Shown in pieces: positions 3,404 to 34,133 of a DNA stretch of 61,358 bases (position 1 is the stretch's first letter; the number at the start of each line of letters is the position of its first letter). The stretch comes from an uncultured Oscillospiraceae bacterium (lineage in GTDB: Bacteria; Bacillota; Clostridia; RUG12999): the NCBI GenBank assembly GCA_964418245.1, contig CAYQKW010000005.1, forward strand, positions 1 through 61,358, in the 5' to 3' direction. The notes under the pieces were generated by a model. It was given only the letters and a program-made list of their open reading frames with translations, ran no database searches and had not been told where the DNA came from. A program made the translations under genes and the position numbers.

Positions 3404-5491
3404 TTAATCGAAGCTTATGCCCTCAAATGTTTTTATATCGGAAAGCGGTCTTAAATTTGTCGGGTCAACCGCAAATACCTTTATTTTATTACCGTTGCCT
3501 ATTTTGTCAAGCAGGATGTCTCCTTTAAATGCTTCAAATGCACTGTATTGAACATTCGGCATGAATTTTAAATCAACAAGTTTATTGCCGTCGTATACCG
3601 CAGCGGCAACATTAATACTGCTTTGGTCTATGTATGTTGTTTTCGATTCTTCGGTCGGTGCTCTGTACGATTCAACAACTATATTCAATTTGTCTCCACT
3701 GCCGATATATCCGCCTTCATCGCCGGTTGCTGTGAGAACAACCTCGTCCGCACTGTTGAATTTCTCGATTTTGATGTAATCCCATGCGCCATAGCCTTTT
3801 TGTCCGTTATTGCAGTCGTATAATCTTATCTTATTGAAACTAAAGTTATCACCCAAATCATATCCTGTCGGATTAATCAGCGTCCATTTTCCTTGGTTAT
3901 AACTTGTTACCTTTGCATACATATACATTTTTTTCGTATTGAAATCAATTACAACTTTATATTCTGCACCTGTAATCGGATCACATACAAATGACGCTCC
4001 GTCAGCCGGTCTTTTTGAATTTCCGTTCAATATATCATCTTTTGCCTCACCATTCAATCCGGTAACTTTCCACATATGCGAATATGTATAGCCGTTGGTG
4101 CTTATTCCGAGTGCAACACTTCTGCTATTTTTGTCACTGCCGTAAGAATTGTAAGTATCGTTAAGGAAATTTATAAAACTTCTCGGATCTTGACCGTTAT
4201 ATGAAGCCGGCGGCTGCGCTTTTCCGTCTTTCGTTTCGCCGAAGTACTTAACCGACACAGCCCAAACACCGCTGTTTGCTGTTTCTCCGATTTTTTTATC
4301 AAACAAAACATCTCTGTTGTTTTCCATGGAATAACATAATTTTCCGTCTTCTACCCATGCGGTTTCTTTTCTTGTATAATTTTCAAAACCGTAATCCCAC
4401 CAGCTGTCCTTTGTTTCATCATCAAATTTGCAGTTCCAAAGTACGGTATTGTCAGAATTATTTGAAACCATTATATCGTCAATTATCATTCTGCACGGAT
4501 CGTTATGATAACCCTCAGTATAAGCGAAGCCATCTATACCATCTTTCAAGTCAACACCAAAATCCTTCAAACTAATTCCGCATTCATCATCATAATCCGT
4601 TATTTTACCATCCTCGCCGTATTGCGGAATTCGTGTTATTTGTTTCCACCCATTGTTGAACCATCTGTAAATCTGAAGTGAGTTCTTTTCAAAATTAAGT
4701 TGAAATCTCATCTGATATTCCTGACCGTTTCCGGCATATAACATAAATCCAAAGTTTCCGGCATTATTATCTATCTTGTTTTGTCCTATAGTTTCTGATT
4801 TTTCTGCATTAGAAACAGTATCCGCTATTTTTGTATGTTGGGGATATTGTGCCAAAGATAGCGCCAATTTTTCGGTTGTTCCGTTAGTAAATATCAAATT
4901 TCTCCTCCAACCGGTCATTGTCTGTAATTTGAAATCAAAATTCCAAACACCGGATTTAATTACACTGTCAATTGCCGTGGTTTCTTCCGCCGCTGCCGTT
5001 GTGTTGCCTTCTTCGGGAATTTCGGTCGGTGTATTCATAGTTTTTATTTCTTCCGAAAGATTCTTTTTAAAACCGTAATATTCACCGTTGTATTCACCTC
5101 CGACTTTCGTTATTACGCCTTTTTCATCTTCAATCGAGAAGAAACTAACAGAATCTCTGCCGCTTAATGTATCGGCATTAACCAACAACTCTCCCGTACC
5201 GTAATCTTTCGCTTCCGTAACATTGATTGTCGTTATTGCTCCGTCTTCGCCTTCGACTTCTTTTGTGGTTGTTGTACCACGGAAAAGATTCTTTTTGATA
5301 TTATCTTTGTCATTTTCAGACATGTTGGTATCTTTAACTCCCGTATACTTGAACACGTTTCCGAATAAATCATATTGGGTCACGTTTTCAAAGTCTTGTT
5401 CATACACAACCTGTGCCGAAGCCGCCGACATCATGAGCACCGCAGCAACAACTGCCGAAGCCGCCCTTTTTAAAGTTTTTTGTTTTTTCAT
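3404..5491 (-). CDS. Large secreted protein of unknown function
   Basis: ORF 3404..5545. The likely start is ATG 5491 (MKKQKTLKRAASAVVAAVLMMSAASAQ is a signal peptide), preceded by AAAGGAA. I recognise no catalytic motif. Confidence 0.75.
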   Translation of the reverse strand: MKKQKTLKRAASAVVAAVLMMSAASAQVVYEQDFENVTQYDLFGNVFKYTGVKDTNMSENDKDNIKKNLFRGTTTTKEVEGEDGAITTINVTEAKDYGTGELLVNADTLSGRDSVSFFSIEDEKGVITKVGGEYNGEYYGFKKNLSEEIKTMNTPTEIPEEGNTTAAAEETTAIDSVIKSGVWNFDFKLQTMTGWRRNLIFTNGTTEKLALSLAQYPQHTKIADTVSNAEKSETIGQNKIDNNAGNFGFMLYAGNGQEYQMRFQLNFEKNSLQIYRWFNNGWKQITRIPQYGEDGKITDYDDECGISLKDFGVDLKDGIDGFAYTEGYHNDPCRMIIDDIMVSNNSDNTVLWNCKFDDETKDSWWDYGFENYTRKETAWVEDGKLCYSMENNRDVLFDKKIGETANSGVWAVSVKYFGETKDGKAQPPASYNGQDPRSFINFLNDTYNSYGSDKNSRSVALGISTNGYTYSHMWKVTGLNGEAKDDILNGNSKRPADGASFVCDPITGAEYKVVIDFNTKKMYMYAKVTSYNQGKWTLINPTGYDLGDNFSFNKIRLYDCNNGQKGYGAWDYIKIEKFNSADEVVLTATGDEGGYIGSGDKLNIVVESYRAPTEESKTTYIDQSSINVAAAVYDGNKLVDLKFMPNVQYSAFEAFKGDILLDKIGNGNKIKVFAVDPTNLRPLSDIKTFEGISFD

Positions 5492-26938: not shown

Positions 26939-28912
26939 ATGATTTACGAGAAATTCGCAGAAATAGGTGAATATGCCGCAGCCGGAGCTTTTGAAAACGA
27001 AAACAAAAGTCTTTTTTGCCGGAAAGCGTTGGGACTGCGCAGGTATTACGAGAACTGCAAACTATATGAATATTCTGGAAAGCCTTTATATCCGTCCGGT
27101 GTTAAATCCGATGATATGATAATAAAACCACACTATCTCAACGGTCTTGACATAGATTGGGGAAAAGTAACCGACAGCAACAGAAACCTGATACAGCGTT
27201 ACGCAGATGATTTTTTCCGATATACTTCCAAAGTGCCTGCCGAACACGTTGTTGCCGGAAATATGTGGTGTCATTCCATGCCGAACTACGGCAGAATAAT
27301 CCGCGAGGGTTTCAATTCATATGCGGAAAGAATCAAAAAAATCACCGATGATGACTTGAGAGAAGGTCTTTTGCATATTTACGAGGGCATTAAATGTTAT
27401 GTGGAAAGATGCGTAAATTATCTTGAAGAAGTGAATGCCGACACAAAAATCATAAATGCATTAAAAAAAGTTCCGCTCGAAAAAGCCGACAATATTTACG
27501 AAGCGATTGTTTCGTAGAATTTTGTTATGTATCTTGACAACTGCGATAATTTAGGCTGTCTCGCAAAAGAATTGGACGATTTTCACAACGGAGAAGATGT
27601 TGTTTACCTGCTGGAAAATTTATATGATAACCTAAACGCACACGATGGATATTCCACAGCACTGCACAACGATTACAACGAACTTACAATTCAATGTTTA
27701 AAAGCCGCAAAGGGCAAACGCCGACCGATGATTGAGCTTTTCGTTGACAAAAACACTCCGAACGAAATTTGGGACACCGCTTTCGACGTTATGCGTTCCT
27801 GCGGCGGTCAGCCGGCTTTTTACAATCCCAAAATATTGCTCGGAGGATTGCAGAAAAAACTGAATATAACCGATGAAGATATAAAAGGATTCTGCGGAGG
27901 CGGCTGCACCGAAAGTATGATTGCCGGAATGTCGAATATCGGTTCTGTTGATGCCGGTATAAACTTGTTGCTTATATTTGAAAAAGTAATGTATGATTAT
28001 TTGCCGAAATCAAAAAGCTTTGAAGATTTTTACGATAAATATACGGAAGCCGTTCGCCGTACAGCGGAAGATGTTATGACGAAAATCAGCATTTCTCAAA
28101 AAGAGAGAGCAAAATTCAATCCTGTGCCGATGCGTACTTTTTTAATTGACGATTGCATAGATTCCGGAAAGGAATATTACAGCGGAGGAGCAAGATATAA
28201 AGGCAGTATTGTAAATTTTGCCGGTATGATAAACGTAATCGATTCCATGCTTGCGGTTGATGAGCTTATCTTTAAAGAAAAAAGCGAAACACCCGAAGAA
28301 TTTTTATTGAAATTAAAAAATAACGATGAAGAATTTTTACAAAAATGCCGCAATATAAAAAGATGTTTCGGAACGGATGATGACGAAAGCAATGCTTTCA
28401 CACATAAAATCTCGCAGACAATTTTCTCTATGTTAGATACTCAAACCCCGTATCTCGGCGGGAAATTTCTTCCTGCCTCAATACAATTTATGAGCCAGGT
28501 CGATGCCGGAAAAAATATCGGTGCAACTCCCGACGGAAGATGTGCCGGCGCTCCGCTCTGCGATTCACTCGGTGCGATTTTCGGCAAAGACGTAAAAGGT
28601 CCTACAGCACTTTTAAAAAGCGTTGCATCACTGGATTTGAAACAAGCGCTCGGCGTTCCGATTTTAAACTTTAACATTGACGAAAATTGGAATAACGATG
28701 TGCTTAAAGCCTTGATTTTATCGTATATGGAAATGGGCGGAATACAAATGCAGATTTCCTGCGTATCCGCCGAAATGCTGCAAGAAGCATACGACAATCC
28801 CGATATGCATAAAAATATCGTGGTTCGTGTGGGCGGTTATTCCGAATATTTTTATCGTCTTTCGGACGAACTGAAAAAAATGATAATGCAGCGAACAATT
28901 CAAAAAATGTGA
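26939..28912 (+). pseudogene. Short (about 657 codons) glycyl radical enzyme interrupted by one in-frame TAG at 27515..27517
   Basis: ORFs 26939..27517 and 27527..28912 share one frame (..EAIVS * NFV MYLDN..). The C-terminal Gly-radical motif VVRVGGYSEYF and a candidate Cys loop GGGCTES are present. Confidence 0.65.
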
Positions 28913-28928
28913 AAGAAGTGATAACAAA

Positions 28929-29756
28929 ATGGTCGGTAAAATATTCGATATACAAAGATTTTGCATAAACGACGGTCCCGGAATACGCACAACGATATTT
29001 ATGAAAGGCTGTCCTCTGCGTTGTATTTGGTGTCATAATCCCGAAAGTCAAGCAAAAGAAACGGAAATTATGTTCTATAAAGAACGTTGCACGGGATGCG
29101 GAAAATGCAAATCGCATACGGATAATTCGTTTGTGTGTCCCAACGGAGCAAAAGAAATCTGCGGAAAAGATATTGATTCCGACTGTGTGATTGAACAAGT
29201 ATTAAAAGACTGTGTTTTTTATAAAAATTCCGACGGCGGTGTCACCCTTTCGGGCGGAGAAGCTCTGTATCAATATGAATTTTGCTTGGATTTGCTGAAA
29301 AAATTAAAAAATCACGGTCTGCATACGGCGGTTGAAACCTGCGGTTTTGCAAATCGTGATAATCTGAGCAATATCGCACAATATACCGATTTGTTTCTGT
29401 TCGATTACAAAGAAACCGATTCGGTTAAGCATAATCAATTCACCGGTGTTGATAATTCCGTTATTCTTAATAATTTATCATTTTTGAATAAATTGAAGAA
29501 AAATATAATTTTACGCTGTCCGATTATTAAAGGCTGTAACGACAGACAAGACCATTTTGACGGCATTGCGGCAACGGCAAATAAATATGAACATATTTTG
29601 CACATTGAAATTGAACCCTACCATCCGCTCGGCGAGGGAAAATGTGCTGCACTCGAAAAAATCCCCCAAAAATTTGACGTTGCAAGCGAAAAAGAAAAGA
29701 ACGAGTATCTTCGCCAAATAAGCAACAAAACGCACAAAAAAGTTATTTTTGCTTAA
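28929..29756 (+). CDS. Glycyl-radical enzyme activating protein (radical SAM)
   Basis: CINDGPGIRTTIFMKGCPLRCIWCHNPES plus a second Cys cluster, CTGCGKC. Confidence 0.85.
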   Translation: MVGKIFDIQRFCINDGPGIRTTIFMKGCPLRCIWCHNPESQAKETEIMFYKERCTGCGKCKSHTDNSFVCPNGAKEICGKDIDSDCVIEQVLKDCVFYKNSDGGVTLSGGEALYQYEFCLDLLKKLKNHGLHTAVETCGFANRDNLSNIAQYTDLFLFDYKETDSVKHNQFTGVDNSVILNNLSFLNKLKKNIILRCPIIKGCNDRQDHFDGIAATANKYEHILHIEIEPYHPLGEGKCAALEKIPQKFDVASEKEKNEYLRQISNKTHKKVIFA

Positions 29757-29886
29757 GTTTCTTCAAAACAACAAACAGACCATAGCCGAAATTCGGATAA
29801 AAACATTTCCGTTTTTTTACATTCCACAAAAATTATTTTGGATTTTTTTGCACAAAAAGCAGAATTTACCGCAAAAACACTTCAGT

Positions 29887-29920
29887 ATTGTATACAATTT
29901 GCATGATAATTGTATACAAT
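29887..29920. promoter_or_regulatory. Two copies of the 12-bp palindrome ATTGTATACAAT, 22 bp centre to centre
   Basis: The copies are at 29887..29898 and 29909..29920, about 30-60 bp upstream of the -35 of promoter P1. Confidence 0.5.
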
Positions 29921-29948
29921 ACTCTTTTAATATTGTTGAAATAATCTA

Positions 29949-29977
29949 TTGATTTTTTTCAGATTTATTGGTATAAT
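29949..29977 (+). promoter_or_regulatory. Promoter P1: TTGATT-17-TGgTATAAT
   Basis: ttgatt at 29949..29954 and tataat at 29972..29977 with TG at 29969..29970. Confidence 0.6.
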
Positions 29978-30073
29978 AAATCTATAGATTAAATAAGCGT
30001 CTGCGGACGCAGGATATAAGGTTGATTTATTGTTACCGTTCAGTTGAATGCAAACCGCTTTGCGGTATTGCTT
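29975..30073 (+). repeat. Repeat module A (99 bp); an inverted copy lies at 61173..61270
   Basis: About 92% identity to the reverse complement of 61173..61270 by my manual alignment (8 mismatches). It contains the palindrome aatctatagatt, the hairpin gcgtc-tgcg-gacgc and the hairpin accgc-ttt-gcggt. Confidence 0.85.
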
Positions 30074-30076
30074 TTA

Positions 30077-30085
30077 TGGTATAAT
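30077..30085 (+). promoter_or_regulatory. Second extended -10 box (TGgTATAAT) at the A/B module junction
   Basis: tggtataat at 30077..30085. Confidence 0.45.
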
Positions 30086-30090
30086 AAGTA

Positions 30091-30154
30091 GAAAGAATTG
30101 CTTATGCAATTCTTTACGGACTTCGTCCTTTCTGTGCTTCGCACACCTACTTTT
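30091..30154 (+). repeat. Repeat module B (64 bp, three consecutive hairpins)
   Basis: It is a direct repeat of 30230..30293 (3 mismatches in 64). The hairpins are aaagaattgc/gcaattcttt, ggac-ttc-gtcc and gtgc-ttc-gcac. Confidence 0.9.
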
Positions 30155-30157
30155 TTG

Positions 30158-30212
30158 ACGGCGTCGTAAAAATCCCTTTGCAAGCAAGCATTTTTACTTC
30201 CTGGTTAAATAA
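30158..30212 (+). repeat. Repeat module C; an inverted copy lies at 61268..61321
   Basis: acggcgtcgtaaaaat..gcaagcaagcatttttacttcctggttaaataa matches the reverse complement of the window end. The other copy forms an 11-bp stem, gtaaaaatgct/agcatttttac. Confidence 0.8.
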
Positions 30213-30229
30213 AGTTTCTGATTAATGTT

Positions 30230-30293
30230 GAAAGAATTGCTCTTGCTATTCTTTACGGACTTCGTCCTTTCTGTGCTTCGCACACCTACTTTT
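30230..30293 (+). repeat. Repeat module B' (second copy of B)
   Basis: See 30091..30154. Confidence 0.9.
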
Positions 30294-30392
30294 ATGAATT
30301 AAGTTAAATATAATCTCTTTTATTTATCCCCTGCTTAAATGAGATTTAAACTAATATATTGCCGATACAGGGCGGCGGAATGGAGAATACAT

Positions 30393-32450
30393 ATGTTTGA
30401 AAGACAAACGGAATGGGAAGGCTTTAAAGGCGTTAAATGGATTGAAGGCGTAAACGTTCGTGATTTTATTCAGCAGAACTACACACCTTACGATGGCGAC
30501 GCATCTTTTTTGGCTCCCGCAACAGAAGCAACAAAACAGCTTTGGGATAAAGTTATGGACTTGTCCGCAAAGGAAAGAGAAGCAGGCGGCGTTCTCGATA
30601 TGGATACAAAAATCGTATCTACAATCACATCGCACGGTGCAGGATATTTAGATAAAAACCTCGAAAAAATCGTAGGACTTCAGACAGATAAACCGTTCAA
30701 ACGTTCACTTCAGCCTTTCGGCGGAATAAGAATGGCACAGAACGCTTGCCGCGAAAACGGCTACGAAGTTGACCCGGAAGTTGTTAATATATTTACAAAC
30801 TACCGAAAAACTCACAATCAAGGTGTTTTCGACGTATATACACCGGAAATGCGTCTTGCAAGAAAATCCGCAATCATCACAGGATTGCCCGATGCATACG
30901 GCAGAGGCAGAATCATAGGCGACTACAGACGTGTCGCACTCTATGGTGTCGACCTTTTGATTCAGGACAAGCAACACCAGAGAGATACATCGCTCGTAAG
31001 AATGACATCGAAAAACATTCGTCTTCGCGAAGAGCTCAGCGAACAGCTCCGTGCACTTGAAGAACTCAAGGAACTCGGCAAAATTTACGGATATGATATA
31101 TCACGTCCGGCAAAAAATGCACACGAAGCCGTACAATGGTTATACTTCGGATACCTTGCCGCCGTTAAAGAACAGAACGGTGCGGCAATGAGTTTGGGAA
31201 GAACATCAACATTCCTTGATATTTATATAGAAAGAGACCTTAAAGCCGGTATCATAACAGAGCAGGAAGCTCAAGAAATAATCGACCATTTCATAATGAA
31301 ACTTCGTCTTGTTAAATTCGCACGTACACCGGAATATAACGAAGTGTTCGCCGGCGACCCGACATGGGTTACGGAAAGCATCGGCGGTGTCGGCATAAAC
31401 GGCAGACACCTTGTAACGAAAAACTCTTTCAGATATTTGCATACGCTTGAAAACCTCGGAACGGCTCCGGAACCGAACTTAACTGTTTTATGGTCTGTTT
31501 CGTTGCCGAGAAGCTTTAAAGAATATTGTGCAAAGATTTCAATACAAACATCTTCCGTACAATATGAAAACGATGATATGATGCGTGAAATTCACGGTGA
31601 TGACTATGCAATAGCTTGCTGCGTATCTTCCATGAAAGTCGGCAAAGAAATGCAGTTCTTCGGTGCAAGAGCAAACCTTGCAAAATGCTTGCTTTACGCA
31701 ATCAACGGCGGTATGGACGAGCGTCTTAAAATCCAGGTTGGTCCGAAATATCGTCCGATAACTTCGGAATATCTTGATTTCGATGAAGTTATGGAAAGAT
31801 ATGATGCAATGATGGAATGGCTTGCCGGTATTTATGTTAATACATTGAACATCATTCATTATATGCATGATAAATATTGCTACGAACGTATTCAGATGGC
31901 ACTCCACGACAGAGATGTCAAGAGATATTTCGCAACAGGTATTGCCGGACTTTCGGTTGTTGCCGATTCACTCAGTGCAATCAAATACGCAAAAGTTAAA
32001 GCTGTACGTGACGAGGACGGTATTGTTACAAGCTATGAAGTTGAGGGTGATTTCCCGAAATACGGCAACAACGACGACAGAGTTGACAGACTTGCCGTTG
32101 ACCTTGTAAATACGTTCATGGAAAAAGTGAGAAAACATCACACATACCGCGACAGTTATCCCACAGCTTCGATACTCACAATAACATCTAACGTTGTATA
32201 CGGCAAAAAGACAGGCGATACACCGGACGGCAGAAAAATGGGACAGCCTCTTGCTCCGGGAGCAAACCCGATGCACGGCAGAGATACTCACGGTGCGGCC
32301 GCATCTCTTGCTTCCGTATCGAAACTTCCGTTTAAAAATGCACAGGACGGTATTTCAAATACATTTACAATCATTCCGGATGCACTCGGAAAAGACGACA
32401 AAGTATTCATGGGCGATATTGACCTTGATATGCTTAAAAACGAGGACTGA
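30393..32450 (+). CDS. pflB: Pyruvate formate-lyase, large catalytic fragment lacking the glycyl-radical domain
   Basis: The start [11 protein letters not shown] follows GGAG. The catalytic ACCVS cysteines are present. PFL homology ends at ..[10 protein letters not shown], followed by a 16-aa non-homologous tail and a stop. Confidence 0.85.
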
Positions 32451-32452
32451 TT

Positions 32453-32635
32453 ATGAACAGCGAACAAGAGCTTATTGATACTATTGACAAGCTTATGCAG
32501 AACGGCAGCGGACATATTTTTGTATCAGCCGACGGCGAAGCGTTCACTCAGCCGTGTTCGGATTGCACAAACGGTGATTTTGCCTGCAAAACACCCACTG
32601 TGTCCGACTGCGATTTTGAAGAATACACAAAATAA
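32453..32635 (+). CDS. 60-aa Cys-rich acidic protein inserted between the two PFL pieces
   Basis: Its ATG lies 2 nt after the pflB stop, preceded by GAGGA. The sequence ends ..[28 protein letters not shown] recognise no family. Confidence 0.5.
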
Positions 32636-32675
32636 AATATTGTCCGCATTTGTGCGGACGGATTGGAGAATTATT

Positions 32676-32909
32676 ATGTCACAGCAAATAGAAAACTTAA
32701 TTTCACTTCTTGACGGTTATGTTGAAAAAGGCGGACATCATCTTAATGTAAACGTGCTTACAAAAGAAACTCTTTTGGATGCACAGGCACATCCGGAAAA
32801 ATATCCGCAGCTTACAATACGTGTTTCCGGTTATGCGGTAAACTTTATTAAGCTTACAAAACAGCAGCAGGACGACGTAATTTCACGTACTTTCCATCAA
32901 GCTATATAA
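32676..32909 (+). CDS. Stand-alone glycyl-radical domain (PFL C-terminus / GrcA-like), 77 aa
   Basis: [77 protein letters not shown] aligns with the E. coli PflB C-terminus, including the RVSGYAV radical glycine. It has its own GGAG and ATG. Confidence 0.85.
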
Positions 32910-32915
32910 ACAAAA

Positions 32916-32951
32916 AAAAGATGGCTGTTGCAACGCAACGGTCATCTTTTT
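32916..32951 (+). terminator. Hairpin plus T-run between the Gly-radical domain gene and pflA (terminator/attenuator)
   Basis: aaaagatggctgttgc / gcaacggtcatctttt with two mismatches, followed by Ts. Confidence 0.5.
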
Positions 32952-32967
32952 ACTTACGGAGGATATT

Positions 32968-33726
32968 ATGAAAGGATATATACATTCAACCGAATCGTTC
33001 GGCACGGTTGACGGACCGGGTATACGCTTTGTTGTTTTCACGCAGGGCTGCCCGCTGCGGTGTTTATATTGTCACAATCCCGATACATGGCAGACAAATC
33101 AAGGCACATTACGCAGCACGGACGATATTTTAAAAGAATATGACGGTGTGAAAGAATTTTTAAAATCAGGCGGAATAACCGTCACCGGCGGCGAACCGCT
33201 TATGCAGATTGATTTTGTTACGGAACTTTTTGAAAAAGCAAAAAAACAAGGTATAAACACTTGTCTTGATACGTCCGGTGCGATATTTCAAAAAGATAAT
33301 GCGGAATTGCTCAAAAGATTCGACAGGCTTATGAACGTTACTGATACCGTTATGCTCGATATAAAGCATATTGATGAAACGGAACACATTAAACTTACGG
33401 GACGCACAAACAAAAATATTCTCGATTTTGCCGAATACCTTTCCGAAAAACCTCTTTCGCTTTGGATTCGCCACGTTGTTGTATATGATATAACATATAA
33501 CGAAGAATATTTATATAAACTCGGCTATTTCATCGGCGGACTTAAAAATCTTAAGGCACTTGATGTTCTCCCCTATCATAATATGGGCGAAGTTAAATAT
33601 GAATCGCTTGATATTACATATCCTCTCAAAGACGTTGAACCGACCTCCAAAGAAGATGCAAAACACGCACGTGAGATTATTATCTCAGGTATGAAAAAAC
33701 GATTAAAAGATGGGTACACTCAATAA
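32968..33726 (+). CDS. pflA: Pyruvate formate-lyase activating enzyme
   Basis: GYIHSTESFGTVDGPGIRFVVFTQGCPLRCLYCHNPDTW. Confidence 0.9.
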   Translation: MKGYIHSTESFGTVDGPGIRFVVFTQGCPLRCLYCHNPDTWQTNQGTLRSTDDILKEYDGVKEFLKSGGITVTGGEPLMQIDFVTELFEKAKKQGINTCLDTSGAIFQKDNAELLKRFDRLMNVTDTVMLDIKHIDETEHIKLTGRTNKNILDFAEYLSEKPLSLWIRHVVVYDITYNEEYLYKLGYFIGGLKNLKALDVLPYHNMGEVKYESLDITYPLKDVEPTSKEDAKHAREIIISGMKKRLKDGYTQ

Positions 33727-33747
33727 AAATTAACATTTTTTATTCAC

Positions 33748-33781
33748 AGCGGTATAGTTTTTCTATACCGCTTCGTTTTTA
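33748..33781 (+). terminator. Intrinsic terminator after pflA
   Basis: Stem agcggtatag / ctataccgct followed by a T-run. Confidence 0.7.
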
Positions 33782-33823
33782 TCAATAAGCTTTACACCGG
33801 CATAAAATCCGCTTAGATAATCC

Positions 33824-33852
33824 TTGACAAATCCTTTGCAATATGATATAAT
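33824..33852 (+). promoter_or_regulatory. Consensus promoter TTGACA-17-TATAAT
   Basis: ttgaca at 33824..33829 and tataat at 33847..33852. Confidence 0.65.
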
Positions 33853-33856
33853 GTAT

Positions 33857-34020
33857 TTACCACATACTAATATTTTAATATTTATTTTGAGATATTCTTG
33901 AGAATATCTTTGTTTTGCTGTTCTATTATTGCTATATCAAACAAATTTGTGTTTATGTTAAAAACGCAGGCTTTATATTATTTGTTTGATAAGCAAATTC
34001 AGAATATTAGTGTGTGGTAA
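33857..34020 (+). ncRNA. 164-nt element closed by an 18-bp helix: a structured leader RNA or a MITE-like insertion
   Basis: ttaccacatactaatatt (33857..33874) pairs with aatattagtgtgtggtaa (34003..34020), with one G-U pair. Internal perfect hairpins lie at 33890..33909 and at 33935..33946 with 33980..33991. There is no ORF. Confidence 0.45.
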
Positions 34021-34042
34021 CCTAAATTCAGAGCCTCGTTTT

Positions 34043-34080
34043 TATGCGTGGCAATGGTTTAAGTTGCCACGCATTTTTTA
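34043..34080 (+). terminator. Intrinsic terminator in the leader, upstream of the 34134 gene
   Basis: 11-bp perfect stem atgcgtggcaa / ttgccacgcat followed by ttttttattttt. Confidence 0.75.
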
Positions 34081-34133
34081 TTTTTGCGTGAGCCTTGAGA
34101 AAGGAGTTTTTTTATGTTGTCGGTGGGCAAAAG

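What the first reader, a model, noticed from the sequence alone, without database searches (positions are those of the whole stretch)
32400..32909. Pyruvate formate-lyase is split: the catalytic body and the glycyl-radical domain are separate genes
**Seen in sequence.**
- PFL homology in the 685-aa ORF stops at ..[10 protein letters not shown]. It is followed by 16 unrelated residues ([16 protein letters not shown]) and a stop.
- After a 60-aa ORF and a hairpin (gtccgca-tttg-tgcggac, 32642..32659), a new GGAG and ATG start a 77-aa protein.
- That protein aligns with the last roughly 75 residues of E. coli PflB, including RVSGYAV (the radical glycine).
- The catalytic Cys-Cys (ACCVS) therefore sits on one polypeptide and the radical site on another.

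**Established knowledge.** E. coli GrcA/YfiD is a free radical domain that rescues oxygen-cleaved PFL.

**Inference.** This organism may use a constitutively two-piece PFL with an exchangeable radical cofactor subunit. I do not know of a described example.
Basis: partly seen in the sequence, partly recalled or inferred. Interest (0 to 1): 0.7.

Follow-up and report, generated by a model that had tools for sequence, protein, structure and literature searches.

The report
Naturally split three-piece pyruvate formate-lyase
This gut Clostridia bacterium, like most of the closest related species sampled, encodes pyruvate formate-lyase as a catalytic body, a separate 77-residue radical-carrying subunit and a conserved small cysteine-bearing protein between them, an arrangement that databases label piecemeal and that no paper I could search describes.

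Summary
The split is real and conserved, not a misassembly or pseudogene.

- **Pieces.** The 685-aa PFL body (30393..32450) ends at the body/radical-domain boundary. A 77-aa protein (32676..32909) carries the rest of the Gly_radical domain, including RVSGYAV. It meets NCBIfam's "GrcA3" model.
- **Spread.** In 79 of the 80 closest species-representative genomes, the radical domain is likewise a separate short ORF. In 72 of them it lies directly behind a radical-domain-less body.
- **Selection.** All three pieces are under purifying selection.
- **The overlooked gene.** Its N-half copies the radical domain's first helix and strand. Its C-half is a Cys motif (DCxxGxxACxxPT). In species without the small gene, that motif forms the body's own C-terminal tail.
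- **Recoding.** Stop codons, gaps and frames vary between species, so recoding is unlikely.
- **Prior knowledge.** No paper found describes this. Two PDB entries hold radical-domain-less "formate acetyltransferase" chains and are absent from the fold library, which holds releases up to April 2026.
- **Untested.** Function as an obligate heteromeric enzyme is inferred. A second intact pflB in this genome could not be checked.

The parts
29884..29923 (.). Perfect 16-nt inverted repeat (AGTATTGTATACAATT / AATTGTATACAATACT) upstream of the promoter-like site. It may be an operator. Whether it belongs to the system is uncertain.
29949..29977 (+). Promoter-like site (TTGATT-17-TATAAT with an upstream TG), about 415 nt before the body start. 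It is a consensus match only.
30088..30297 (+). Two copies of a 71-nt direct repeat (93% identical, 139 nt apart) in the long 5' leader. Each copy contains hairpins and a T run. Role unknown.
30393..32450 (+). PFL catalytic body, 685 aa, without the C-terminal half of the glycyl-radical domain. The catalytic Cys-Cys (C409/C410, 31617-31622) lies in IACCVS.
   Evidence: TIGR01255, 1140.7 bits, profile positions 1-665 of 744; alignment to E. coli PFL up to about residue 681; invariant columns.
32400..32447 (+). C-terminal tail of the body, [16 protein letters not shown]. It is a conserved acidic VFxGD(I/L)D(L/I)D motif of split PFL bodies. It is followed by a TGA stop, and GAGGA inside its last codons serves as the ribosome-binding site for the next gene.
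32453..32635 (+). Conserved 60-aa protein. Residues 1-26 resemble the N-terminal helix and first strand of the radical domain. Residues 35-53 form the Cys motif C-x2-C-x6-C-x2-PT..C. Databases call it a hypothetical protein.
   Evidence: homologs at 70-83% identity; family alignment with C45 and P48 invariant; hhalign scores of 43.1 and 36.3 against shuffled maxima of 14.4 and 18; dN/dS 0.03-0.18; naming.
32642..32659 (+). Hairpin of 7-8 bp between the small gene and the ribosome-binding site of the radical subunit. No U tract follows on the + strand, so it is not a + strand terminator. L001 and L008 have hairpins of the same shape but different sequence. L002 has none.
32665..32668 (+). GGAG ribosome-binding site, 7 nt before the ATG of the radical subunit.
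32676..32909 (+). 77-aa glycyl-radical subunit of the GrcA3 family. The radical glycine is G52 in RVSGYAV (32829-32831), equivalent to E. coli PflB G734.
   Evidence: NF038360, 164.1 bits against a cutoff of 158. Pfam Gly_radical positions 52-106; residues 6-76 align with PflB 683-758.
32915..32951 (+). Strong stem-loop of 17 bp flanked by A and U runs, between the radical subunit and pflA. It is a likely (partial) intrinsic terminator.
   Evidence: -21.1 kcal/mol, z -7.2.
32968..33726 (+). PflA, the pyruvate formate-lyase activating enzyme (radical SAM).
   Evidence: TIGR02493, 275.2 bits against a cutoff of 231.75. Also.
33748..33772 (+). Terminator-like hairpin with a T run after pflA.

Best explanation
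The locus encodes a naturally split, heteromeric pyruvate formate-lyase.

**Shown.**
- The 685-aa body carries the barrel and the catalytic Cys-Cys, but it ends at the point where the radical domain would begin.
- The 77-aa GrcA3 protein supplies the missing helix, the barrel strand beta-10, the Gly loop and the C-terminal helix.
- The 60-aa protein combines two modules. One is a copy of the radical domain's helix and beta-10 strand. The other is a Cys motif that, in species lacking the small gene, is the body's own C-terminal tail.

**Inferred.**
- PflA puts the radical on G52 of the small subunit.
- That subunit docks into the body so that G52 sits next to C409/C410, as E. coli GrcA does on oxygen-cleaved or G734A PflB.
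- GrcA3 is therefore the primary radical subunit here, not a spare, and it can be replaced cheaply after oxygen damage.

**More speculative.**
- The 60-aa protein, or the tail in other species, acts as an assembly or recognition element, or as a placeholder.
- It would substitute for the two elements that E. coli's rescue system needs and this system lacks: PflB residues 696-733 and the disordered N-terminus of YfiD.
For: **Anatomy.**
- The Pfam Gly_radical domain is cut cleanly, with positions 2-51 on the body and 52-106 on the 77-aa protein.
- TIGR01255 covers positions 1-665 on the body and 665-743 on the small protein.
- E. coli numbering places the break near residue 678-681.

**Conservation.**
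- The same order occurs in close relatives L001, L002 and L008, in Lachnoclostridium phytofermentans (L003, L004) and in Ruminococcus gut contigs (L005-7).
- Of the 80 best species-representative loci, 79 have the radical domain as a separate ORF of at most 163 codons stop to stop, and 72 have a radical-domain-less body directly upstream.
- All 120 best GrcA3 homologs are 76-132 aa long.
- Most of the closest body homologs are 684-705 aa, and NCBI names those it names "formate C-acetyltransferase".

**Selection and expression signals.**
- dN/dS is well below 1 for all three pieces.
- Each piece has its own start codon and Shine-Dalgarno sequence.
- PflA lies directly downstream in 52 of 83 loci.

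**The small protein.**
- hhalign to the GrcA3 N-terminus gives probability 95% and score 43.1, against 9.4 +/- 1.8 for shuffled controls.
- hhalign to the Cys tails of bodies without a small gene gives probability 94% and score 36.3, against 8.9 +/- 2.2 for shuffled controls.
- Of the 41 bodies without a small gene, 37 carry at least 2 Cys in the tail. Every small ORF has at least 2 Cys.

**Literature.**
- GrcA transfers its radical intermolecularly to PflB C419 and rescues the G734A variant in vivo (PMC12338860).
- Engineered E. coli tPFL(1-695) plus truncYfiD(61-127) can be activated, but about 6-fold less well than cPFL plus YfiD. Residues 696-733 and the YfiD N-terminus act as recognition elements (PMC8683613).
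- L. phytofermentans makes formate, and its PFL activase is named cphy2820. That number fits a gene order cphy2823-2820 for this type of locus, which I inferred from the numbering alone (PMC9765743, PMC3561251).
Against: - There is no biochemical, proteomic or structural evidence here for a complex or for activity.
- The rest of this organism's genome is not available, so a second, contiguous pflB cannot be excluded.
- For L. phytofermentans a third pfl-like gene, Cphy_1417, could not be classified.
- In E. coli the doubly truncated pair works poorly (PMC8683613), so function here depends on adaptations that have not been shown.
- My AlphaFold model of the concatenated pieces was unusable, with mean pLDDT 54.
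- The role of the 60-aa protein and the Cys motif rests only on sequence resemblance.
- Five Gastranaerophilales loci carry GrcA3 with no body nearby. Some family members may therefore be true stand-alone proteins.
Confidence: 0.72

Rival explanations
1. The 77-aa protein is only a spare part, like E. coli GrcA, for a full-length PFL encoded elsewhere. The truncated body is an inactive or differently used remnant.
For: - NCBIfam names the family "autonomous glycyl radical cofactor GrcA3", with the model name rad_fix.
- Some Gastranaerophilales carry GrcA3 away from any body.
- The rest of this genome was not seen.
Against: - The truncated body is under very strong purifying selection, with dN/dS 0.005-0.02 over its last 190 codons.
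- It keeps the invariant catalytic motifs.
- It lies immediately upstream of GrcA3 in 72 of 80 species.
- A remnant would not be kept this way across families.
- GrcA3 lacks the roughly 60-residue N-terminal region that E. coli YfiD needs for efficient activation (PMC8683613).
Confidence: 0.08
2. The pieces are joined into one chain by stop-codon readthrough, frameshifting, ribosomal bypass or protein ligation. The enzyme would then be effectively contiguous.
For: - The body and GrcA3 are in the same frame in this window.
- A contiguous relative (L047/P0125, 786 aa) carries a Cys-bearing insert of about 40 aa at the same site.
Against: - Frame 0 has two TGA stops, at 32448 and 32454. The frame-0 translation of the spacer is not the conserved reading; the conserved ORF is in another frame.
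- Across species the body stop is TAA in 61 loci, TGA in 12 and TAG in 7.
- Gaps between genes range from -38 to +119 nt, and the distance from the body stop to the GrcA3 start ranges from -17 to +406 nt, in all frames.
- Each piece has its own ribosome-binding site and start codon.
- There is no intein or Hint domain and no intron RNA.
Confidence: 0.04
3. The split is an assembly or sequencing artefact, or a recent pseudogene in this MAG.
For: - The window is a metagenome-type contig.
- A neighbouring glycyl-radical gene does carry an in-frame TAG.
Against: - Independent assemblies from many samples and species, including complete isolate genomes, show the same arrangement.
- Purifying selection acts on all pieces.
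Confidence: 0.02
4. The split enzyme works as body plus GrcA3 alone. The 60-aa ORF is a relic of the duplication that made the split, or a regulatory peptide unrelated to catalysis.
For: - 41 split loci lack the small gene altogether.
- The small protein matches no Pfam, NCBIfam or PDB family.
Against: - It is kept with dN/dS 0.03-0.18.
- It occurs in 31 of the 72 species-representative loci that have a body (39 loci counting the earlier-fetched relatives and the window), which span Ruminococcus, Lachnoclostridium and Erysipelotrichaceae MAGs.
- Its Cys module is the same one that bodies without the small gene carry as a tail. The module is therefore almost always present in one form or the other.
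Confidence: 0.14

Closest known systems
E. coli PflB (formate C-acetyltransferase, TIGR01255) with PflA
   Same: - Same barrel, catalytic Cys-Cys, Gly loop RVSGYAV and activase.
- The body and GrcA3 together cover the whole PflB sequence.
   Different: - PflB is one 759-residue chain. Here the chain is broken near residue 678-681.
- An acidic tail and a 60-aa protein are inserted at the break, neither of which has a counterpart in PflB.
E. coli GrcA/YfiD and phage T4 Y06I, the autonomous glycyl radical cofactors or spare-part proteins (TIGR04365)
   Same: A free radical domain that PflA activates and that supplies the radical in trans to a PFL lacking a working radical domain (PMC8683613, PMC12338860, PMC13450708).
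   Different: - GrcA is 127 aa with a disordered 60-residue N-terminus needed for activation. It sits at a separate locus and backs up an intact PflB.
- The protein here is 77 aa without that region. It scores 95.8 bits against the GrcA cutoff of 170.
- It is co-operonic with a body that never had its own radical domain.
NCBIfam NF038360 "autonomous glycyl radical cofactor GrcA3"
   Same: The 77-aa protein is a member, with 164.1 bits against a cutoff of 158 and full-length coverage.
   Different: - The name implies a spare part.
- The gene context found here (truncated body upstream, Cys module, small protein) is not part of the annotation.
- No paper held in the library contains the name.
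Engineered tPFL(1-695) plus truncYfiD(61-127) of Andorfer et al. 2021 (PMC8683613)
   Same: Nearly the same cut: a body without beta-10 and the Gly loop, plus a minimal radical domain.
   Different: - The engineered pair binds weakly and is poorly activated.
- The natural system cuts about 15 residues earlier.
- It also has the conserved tail or Cys module and, in this lineage, a protein that copies the helix and beta-10 region.
PDB 38la_A (687 aa) and 38lb_A (739 aa), both "Formate acetyltransferase"
   Same: - Neither chain has a radical domain.
- 38la ends at ..SLGKED, which is the split point.
- 38lb continues ..GKSGNVMFGECDMCEMKE.., a VxFG(D/E) tail with Cys.
   Different: - They are different sequences from the window's body.
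- Among the PDB hits of the GrcA3 query, only E. coli PflB and YfiD are close relatives, and no chain comes from 38la or 38lb.
- Both entries are absent from the fold library, which holds releases up to 2026-04-08.
- No paper was found.
Genes-in-pieces ribonucleotide reductase of phage Aeh1, split by a homing endonuclease (recalled from memory, not checked)
   Same: An enzyme gene split into two translated pieces that reassemble.
   Different: No endonuclease, intron or intein is present here. The spacer instead encodes a protein derived from the enzyme itself.

Membership tests
Pyruvate formate-lyase (TIGR01255 / Pfam PFL-like + Gly_radical) | PFL-type barrel scoring above the curated cutoff | tested here: met
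   TIGR01255 gives 1140.7 bits against 994.2. Pfam PFL-like gives E 3e-221.
Pyruvate formate-lyase (TIGR01255 / Pfam PFL-like + Gly_radical) | Adjacent catalytic cysteines (E. coli C418/C419) and the pyruvate-binding FFGAR motif | tested here: met
   IACCVS is at residues 407-412 and QFFGARAN at 421-428. Both are invariant in the alignment.
Pyruvate formate-lyase (TIGR01255 / Pfam PFL-like + Gly_radical) | Radical glycine loop (RVSGY) on the same polypeptide as the barrel | tested here: not met
   The body stops at profile position 665 of 744. RVSGYAV is on the separate 77-aa protein.
Pyruvate formate-lyase (TIGR01255 / Pfam PFL-like + Gly_radical) | Dedicated radical-SAM activase PflA | tested here: met
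   TIGR02493 gives 275.2 bits against 231.75 for the gene at 32968..33726.
Pyruvate formate-lyase (TIGR01255 / Pfam PFL-like + Gly_radical) | Pyruvate + CoA to acetyl-CoA + formate activity, with a glycyl radical EPR doublet | not testable with these tools
   Only indirect evidence exists: L. phytofermentans, which has this locus type, makes formate (PMC9765743).
GrcA/YfiD spare-part protein (TIGR04365) | Free-standing radical domain with RVSGYAV | tested here: met
   Residues 18-76 align with YfiD (6owr) residues 68-126.
GrcA/YfiD spare-part protein (TIGR04365) | Score above the family cutoff, and the roughly 60-residue N-terminal region | tested here: not met
   The score is 95.8 bits against a cutoff of 170, and only profile positions 67-125 of 126 are matched. 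The protein is 77 aa.
GrcA/YfiD spare-part protein (TIGR04365) | Backs up an intact PFL that has its own radical domain | tested here: inconclusive
   The PFL in this locus has no radical domain. The rest of the genome was not available.
GrcA3 (NCBIfam NF038360) | Full-length match above the curated cutoff | tested here: met
   164.1 bits against 158, with protein residues 2-77 matching profile positions 3-78 of 78.
Gene split by a mobile element (group I/II intron, homing endonuclease, intein) | Intron RNA, endonuclease domain or Hint/intein domain at the split | tested here: not met
   Rfam finds no family in 29700-34100. The small ORF has no Pfam or NCBIfam hit, and no Hint domain appears in any piece.

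The most novel reading that the evidence does not exclude
The Cys module is a dummy radical finger. It may be the body's tail or the C-half of the 60-aa protein, which also copies the radical domain's helix and beta-10. The module would occupy the radical-domain site of the body when GrcA3 is absent or out for activation by PflA. Its cysteines would sit at the active site and protect or quench it. This would make a three-state, three-component PFL with built-in protection against oxygen and a disposable radical cartridge. It could be the evolutionary source of spare-part proteins such as GrcA.
Probability: 0.2. Interest if true: 0.85.

Novelty: new variant of a known kind. Interest (0 to 1): 0.6.

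Why it matters
- **Central enzyme.** PFL is the central pyruvate-cleaving enzyme of many gut and rumen fermenters.
- **Textbook picture.** If the dominant Ruminococcus, Lachnospiraceae and Oscillospiraceae forms are obligate heteromers, the picture of a single-chain glycyl radical enzyme is incomplete. The "GrcA3 = spare part" annotation would then be misleading.
- **Model systems.** These organisms would offer natural systems for three open questions: how PflA reaches the glycine, how a radical domain docks in trans, and how anaerobes limit oxygen damage.
- **A biochemical puzzle.** The natural system shows what is needed beyond simple truncation, which works poorly in E. coli (PMC8683613).
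- **Engineering.** The conserved tail, Cys motif and small protein are concrete candidates for engineering exchangeable radical domains into other glycyl radical enzymes.

Tried and rejected
- **AlphaFold2 on the concatenated pieces.** I modelled body + small protein + GrcA3 with a 34-row alignment. Mean pLDDT was 54 and rmsd to E. coli PFL was 26 Å. The alignment was too shallow, so no structural conclusion was drawn.
- **PDB searches with the small protein.** Profile and single-sequence searches gave only chance hits.
- **Whole-library profile search.** I used the five closest small-ORF sequences. It gave 11 hits, of which only three (67-73 aa) look like further family members. The profile was too narrow to size the family.
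- **NJ tree of bodies.** Split and contiguous forms interleave and the outgroups did not hold together. The number of split or fusion events is unresolved.
- **Literature.** Searches for GrcA3, split or two-component PFL, the PDB codes and the Cphy locus tags found no description. A 2026 review of glycyl radical enzymes mentions only YfiD/GrcA.
- **The hairpin as a + strand terminator.** Rejected, because no U tract follows it. The scan flags it only on the empty - strand.
- **Recoding, intein or intron.** Rejected.
Full report
**Observation**

The region reads as the first-stage reader said.
- **Body.** An ORF at 30339..32450, probably starting at 30393, encodes a 685-aa pyruvate formate-lyase (PFL) body. 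It passes the NCBIfam equivalog for formate C-acetyltransferase, but only over profile positions 1-665 of 744. It holds Pfam PFL-like plus the first half of Gly_radical, positions 2-51 of 106. Homology to E. coli PflB ends at ALGKDD, near residue 681. Sixteen residues ([16 protein letters not shown]) and a TGA stop follow.
- **Small ORF.** Two bases later a 60-aa ORF starts (32453..32635).
- **Hairpin and ribosome-binding site.** The hairpin lies at 32642..32659, with GGAG at 32665-32668.
- **Radical subunit.** A 77-aa ORF (32676..32909) holds Gly_radical positions 52-106. It aligns with E. coli PflB residues 683-758, including RVSGYAV. Its G52 corresponds to G734.
- **Activase.** PflA follows at 32968..33726.
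- **Catalytic cysteines.** The Cys-Cys is on the body, in IACCVS at residues 407-412.

**Not an artefact**

The 60-aa protein has homologs at 70-83% identity. Their contigs show the same four genes amid different neighbours (L001, L002). The same order appears elsewhere.
- **Other organisms.** Contigs carrying exact Lachnoclostridium phytofermentans proteins (L003, L004) and Ruminococcus gut contigs (L005-7) have a 685-688-aa body, a 67-68-aa ORF, a 78-79-aa radical protein and, where the contig reaches that far, PflA. That radical protein is indexed in 1909 blocks of the collection.
- **Species-representative genomes.** A scan with the 77-aa protein found at least 597 related stretches. Among the best 80 loci, 79 have the radical domain as a separate ORF of at most 163 codons stop to stop. 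Only L047 (Treponemataceae) is contiguous.
- **Body upstream.** In 72 of the 80 loci a radical-domain-less body lies directly upstream. Two loci are at contig ends, and five Gastranaerophilales loci have no body nearby.
- **Selection.** Among the window, L001, L002 and L008, dN/dS is 0.005-0.02 for the last 190 codons of the body, 0-0.08 for the radical protein and 0.03-0.18 for the 60-aa ORF. dS is 0.4 or more throughout.
- **Homolog lengths.** All 120 best homologs of the 77-aa protein are 76-132 aa. About 105 of the 120 best relatives of the contiguous L047 protein are 684-705-aa bodies.

**Not recoding or a mobile element**

- **Stops and spacing.** Body stop codons are TAA in 61 loci, TGA in 12 and TAG in 7. 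Gaps between genes run from -38 to +119 nt. The distance from the body stop to the start of the radical protein runs from -17 to +406 nt.
- **Translation signals.** Each gene has its own Shine-Dalgarno sequence and start codon. In the window, GAGGA inside the body's last codons precedes the small gene's ATG.
- **Frame.** In the window the body and the radical protein share a frame, but two TGA stops intervene. The conserved reading of the spacer is in another frame.
- **Mobile elements.** No Rfam family reaches its threshold anywhere in 29700-34100. No endonuclease or Hint domain is present.

**The middle gene and the tail**

- **Family pattern.** An alignment of 32 small ORFs from different species gives the pattern M..ELxxxIDxLMxxGSGHxNI..VxTxxSTDCxGxxGACxQPTE followed by an acidic end. 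C45 and P48 are invariant.
- **N-half.** It aligns with the N-terminus of the radical protein ([20 protein letters not shown]). That is the helix and barrel strand beta-10, roughly E. coli residues 678-709. hhalign gives probability 95% and score 43.1, against 9.4 +/- 1.8 (maximum 14.4) in 60 column-shuffled controls.
- **Two architectures.** Counting all fetched loci with an adjacent body, 39 (including the window) have the small gene. Their bodies end in a Cys-free tail, xVFxGD(I/L)D(L/I)DxLxxE. The other 41 have no small gene. In most of these the body's own tail carries the Cys motif, for example VFAGDIEVDLDCSNGACSSPTLFEGLD or ..DxGCCExxxx, and the radical protein follows within at most about 115 nt. 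Of those 41 tails, 37 hold at least two Cys.
- **C-half.** The small protein's C-half aligns with those tails. hhalign gives probability 94% and score 36.3, against 8.9 +/- 2.2 for controls.
- **Conclusion.** The small protein is a copy of the radical domain's first helix and strand, fused to a Cys module that is almost always present at the split in one form or the other.
- **Contiguous relatives.** They show a graded series at the same site: no insert (747 aa), short VF/GFLG-type linkers (751-776 aa), and Cys-bearing inserts (778-786 aa, Treponemataceae). A rough NJ tree interleaves split and contiguous forms and is not resolved.

**Expression signals**

- A promoter-like site lies at 29949..29977.
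- A long leader holds two 71-nt repeats.
- A strong stem-loop with flanking A and U runs lies between the radical gene and pflA (32915..32951, -21.1 kcal/mol, z -7.2).
- A terminator-like site follows pflA.
- The 32642 hairpin is modest and has no U tract on the + strand. L001 and L008 have hairpins of the same shape but different sequence, and L002 has none. It is not a + strand terminator, and its role is open.

**How it most likely works**

- **Shown.** The body lacks the radical domain, and the 77-aa protein is that domain. Both, together with the small protein, are conserved and constrained, and the activase is adjacent.
- **From the literature.** E. coli GrcA receives the radical from PflA. 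It passes the radical in trans to C419 of a PflB whose own domain is damaged or mutated (PMC12338860; review PMC13450708). An engineered pair, PFL(1-695) plus YfiD(61-127), can be activated. However, its activation is about 6-fold below that of oxygen-cleaved PFL plus full YfiD. PFL residues 696-733 and YfiD's disordered N-terminus serve as recognition elements (PMC8683613).
- **Inferred, main model.** The 77-aa protein is the primary radical subunit. It docks into the body to complete the barrel and places G52 next to C409/C410. After oxygen cleavage only this small subunit needs replacing.
- **Inferred, small protein.** The natural system lacks both E. coli recognition elements. In their place it has the tail, the Cys module and, in this lineage, a free copy of the helix and beta-10 segment. 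I propose these act in recruitment or as a placeholder. I hold this more weakly, at about one in three.

**Limits**

- No experiment or usable structure model supports the complex.
- The rest of this genome is unseen.
- For L. phytofermentans, papers list three pfl-like genes. Cphy_1174 is a propanediol dehydratase (PMC3557285). Cphy_2823 appears, from the gene numbering alone (activase cphy2820), to be the split body. Cphy_1417 could not be classified (PMC3561251, PMC9765743).

**What is known**

- **Annotation.** The radical protein meets NCBIfam NF038360, "autonomous glycyl radical cofactor GrcA3". The name frames it as a spare part. Bodies are named formate C-acetyltransferase. The small protein is "hypothetical" everywhere, for example ABX43182.1 and ERJ93285.1.
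- **Papers.** No paper in the library contains "GrcA3" or describes a split PFL. The June 2026 review of glycyl radical enzymes lists only YfiD/GrcA.
- **PDB.** The sequence file holds two "Formate acetyltransferase" entries without a radical domain. 38la (687 aa) ends at ..SLGKED. 38lb (739 aa) continues GKSGNVMFGECDMCEMKE... Both are absent from the fold library, which covers releases up to 2026-04-08. Others may therefore already be studying this.

**Verdict**

I rate it a new variant of a known kind, with interest about 0.6.

Noticed in passing
window 26939..28912 (+), with an activase at 28929..29756: A second, short glycyl radical enzyme of the PFL2/dehydratase type. It has the Cys loop FCGGGCTES and the Gly motif VVRVGGYSEYF. 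It is a single frame of 657 codons broken by one in-frame TAG at 27515-27517 (..NIYEAIVS*NFVMYLDNC..). Its N-terminal 192 aa match no Pfam or NCBIfam family. It could be a pseudogene, a sequencing error, a second kind of split, or recoding.
   Followed up: partly
PDB chains 38la_A and 38lb_A (found with window 32100-32450): Two "Formate acetyltransferase" entries whose chains lack a radical domain. 38la (687 aa) ends exactly at the split point..SLGKED. 38lb (739 aa) carries a Cys-bearing tail. Both are absent from the fold library of releases up to 2026-04-08, and no paper was found.
   Followed up: partly
L022, L053, L067, L069, L072 (Gastranaerophilales/Melainabacteria MAGs), GrcA3 at about 3989-4231: An 80-aa GrcA3 with no PFL body within 4 kb. 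In L022 it sits beside a divergently transcribed 244-aa gene that looks from its sequence like a Crp/Fnr-type regulator, and a 169-aa gene that looks like a ferritin (no domain search was run on either). The GrcA3 family therefore also includes truly stand-alone genes.
   Followed up: partly
P0128 (776-aa contiguous relative) and L047/P0125-P0127 (778-786 aa, Treponemataceae): Contiguous PFLs with Cys motifs in other places. P0128 ends ..TFHDGLGCSSC, after the radical domain. P0125-7 carry CxxC or CCC inserts between the body and the radical domain. The Cys motif therefore recurs whether or not the gene is split.
   Followed up: no
window 30088-30158 and 30227-30297; 29884-29923: The leader of about 630 nt ahead of the PFL body holds two copies of a 71-nt repeat (93% identical). 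Each copy has hairpins and a T run. A perfect 16-nt inverted repeat lies upstream of the promoter-like site. No Rfam family matches.
   Followed up: no
window 32915-32951: A strong A-run/stem/U-run hairpin lies between the radical-subunit gene and pflA (-21.1 kcal/mol, z -7.2). It suggests that pflA is expressed at a lower level or separately from the three structural genes.
   Followed up: partly
L059 (Candidatus Scatosoma), L082, L011: Split bodies with no Cys in the tail. L059 and L082 end right at LGKED or LGKDD. In L059, 296 nt with only a 32-aa ORF separate the body from GrcA3. These are exceptions to the Cys-module rule.
   Followed up: no
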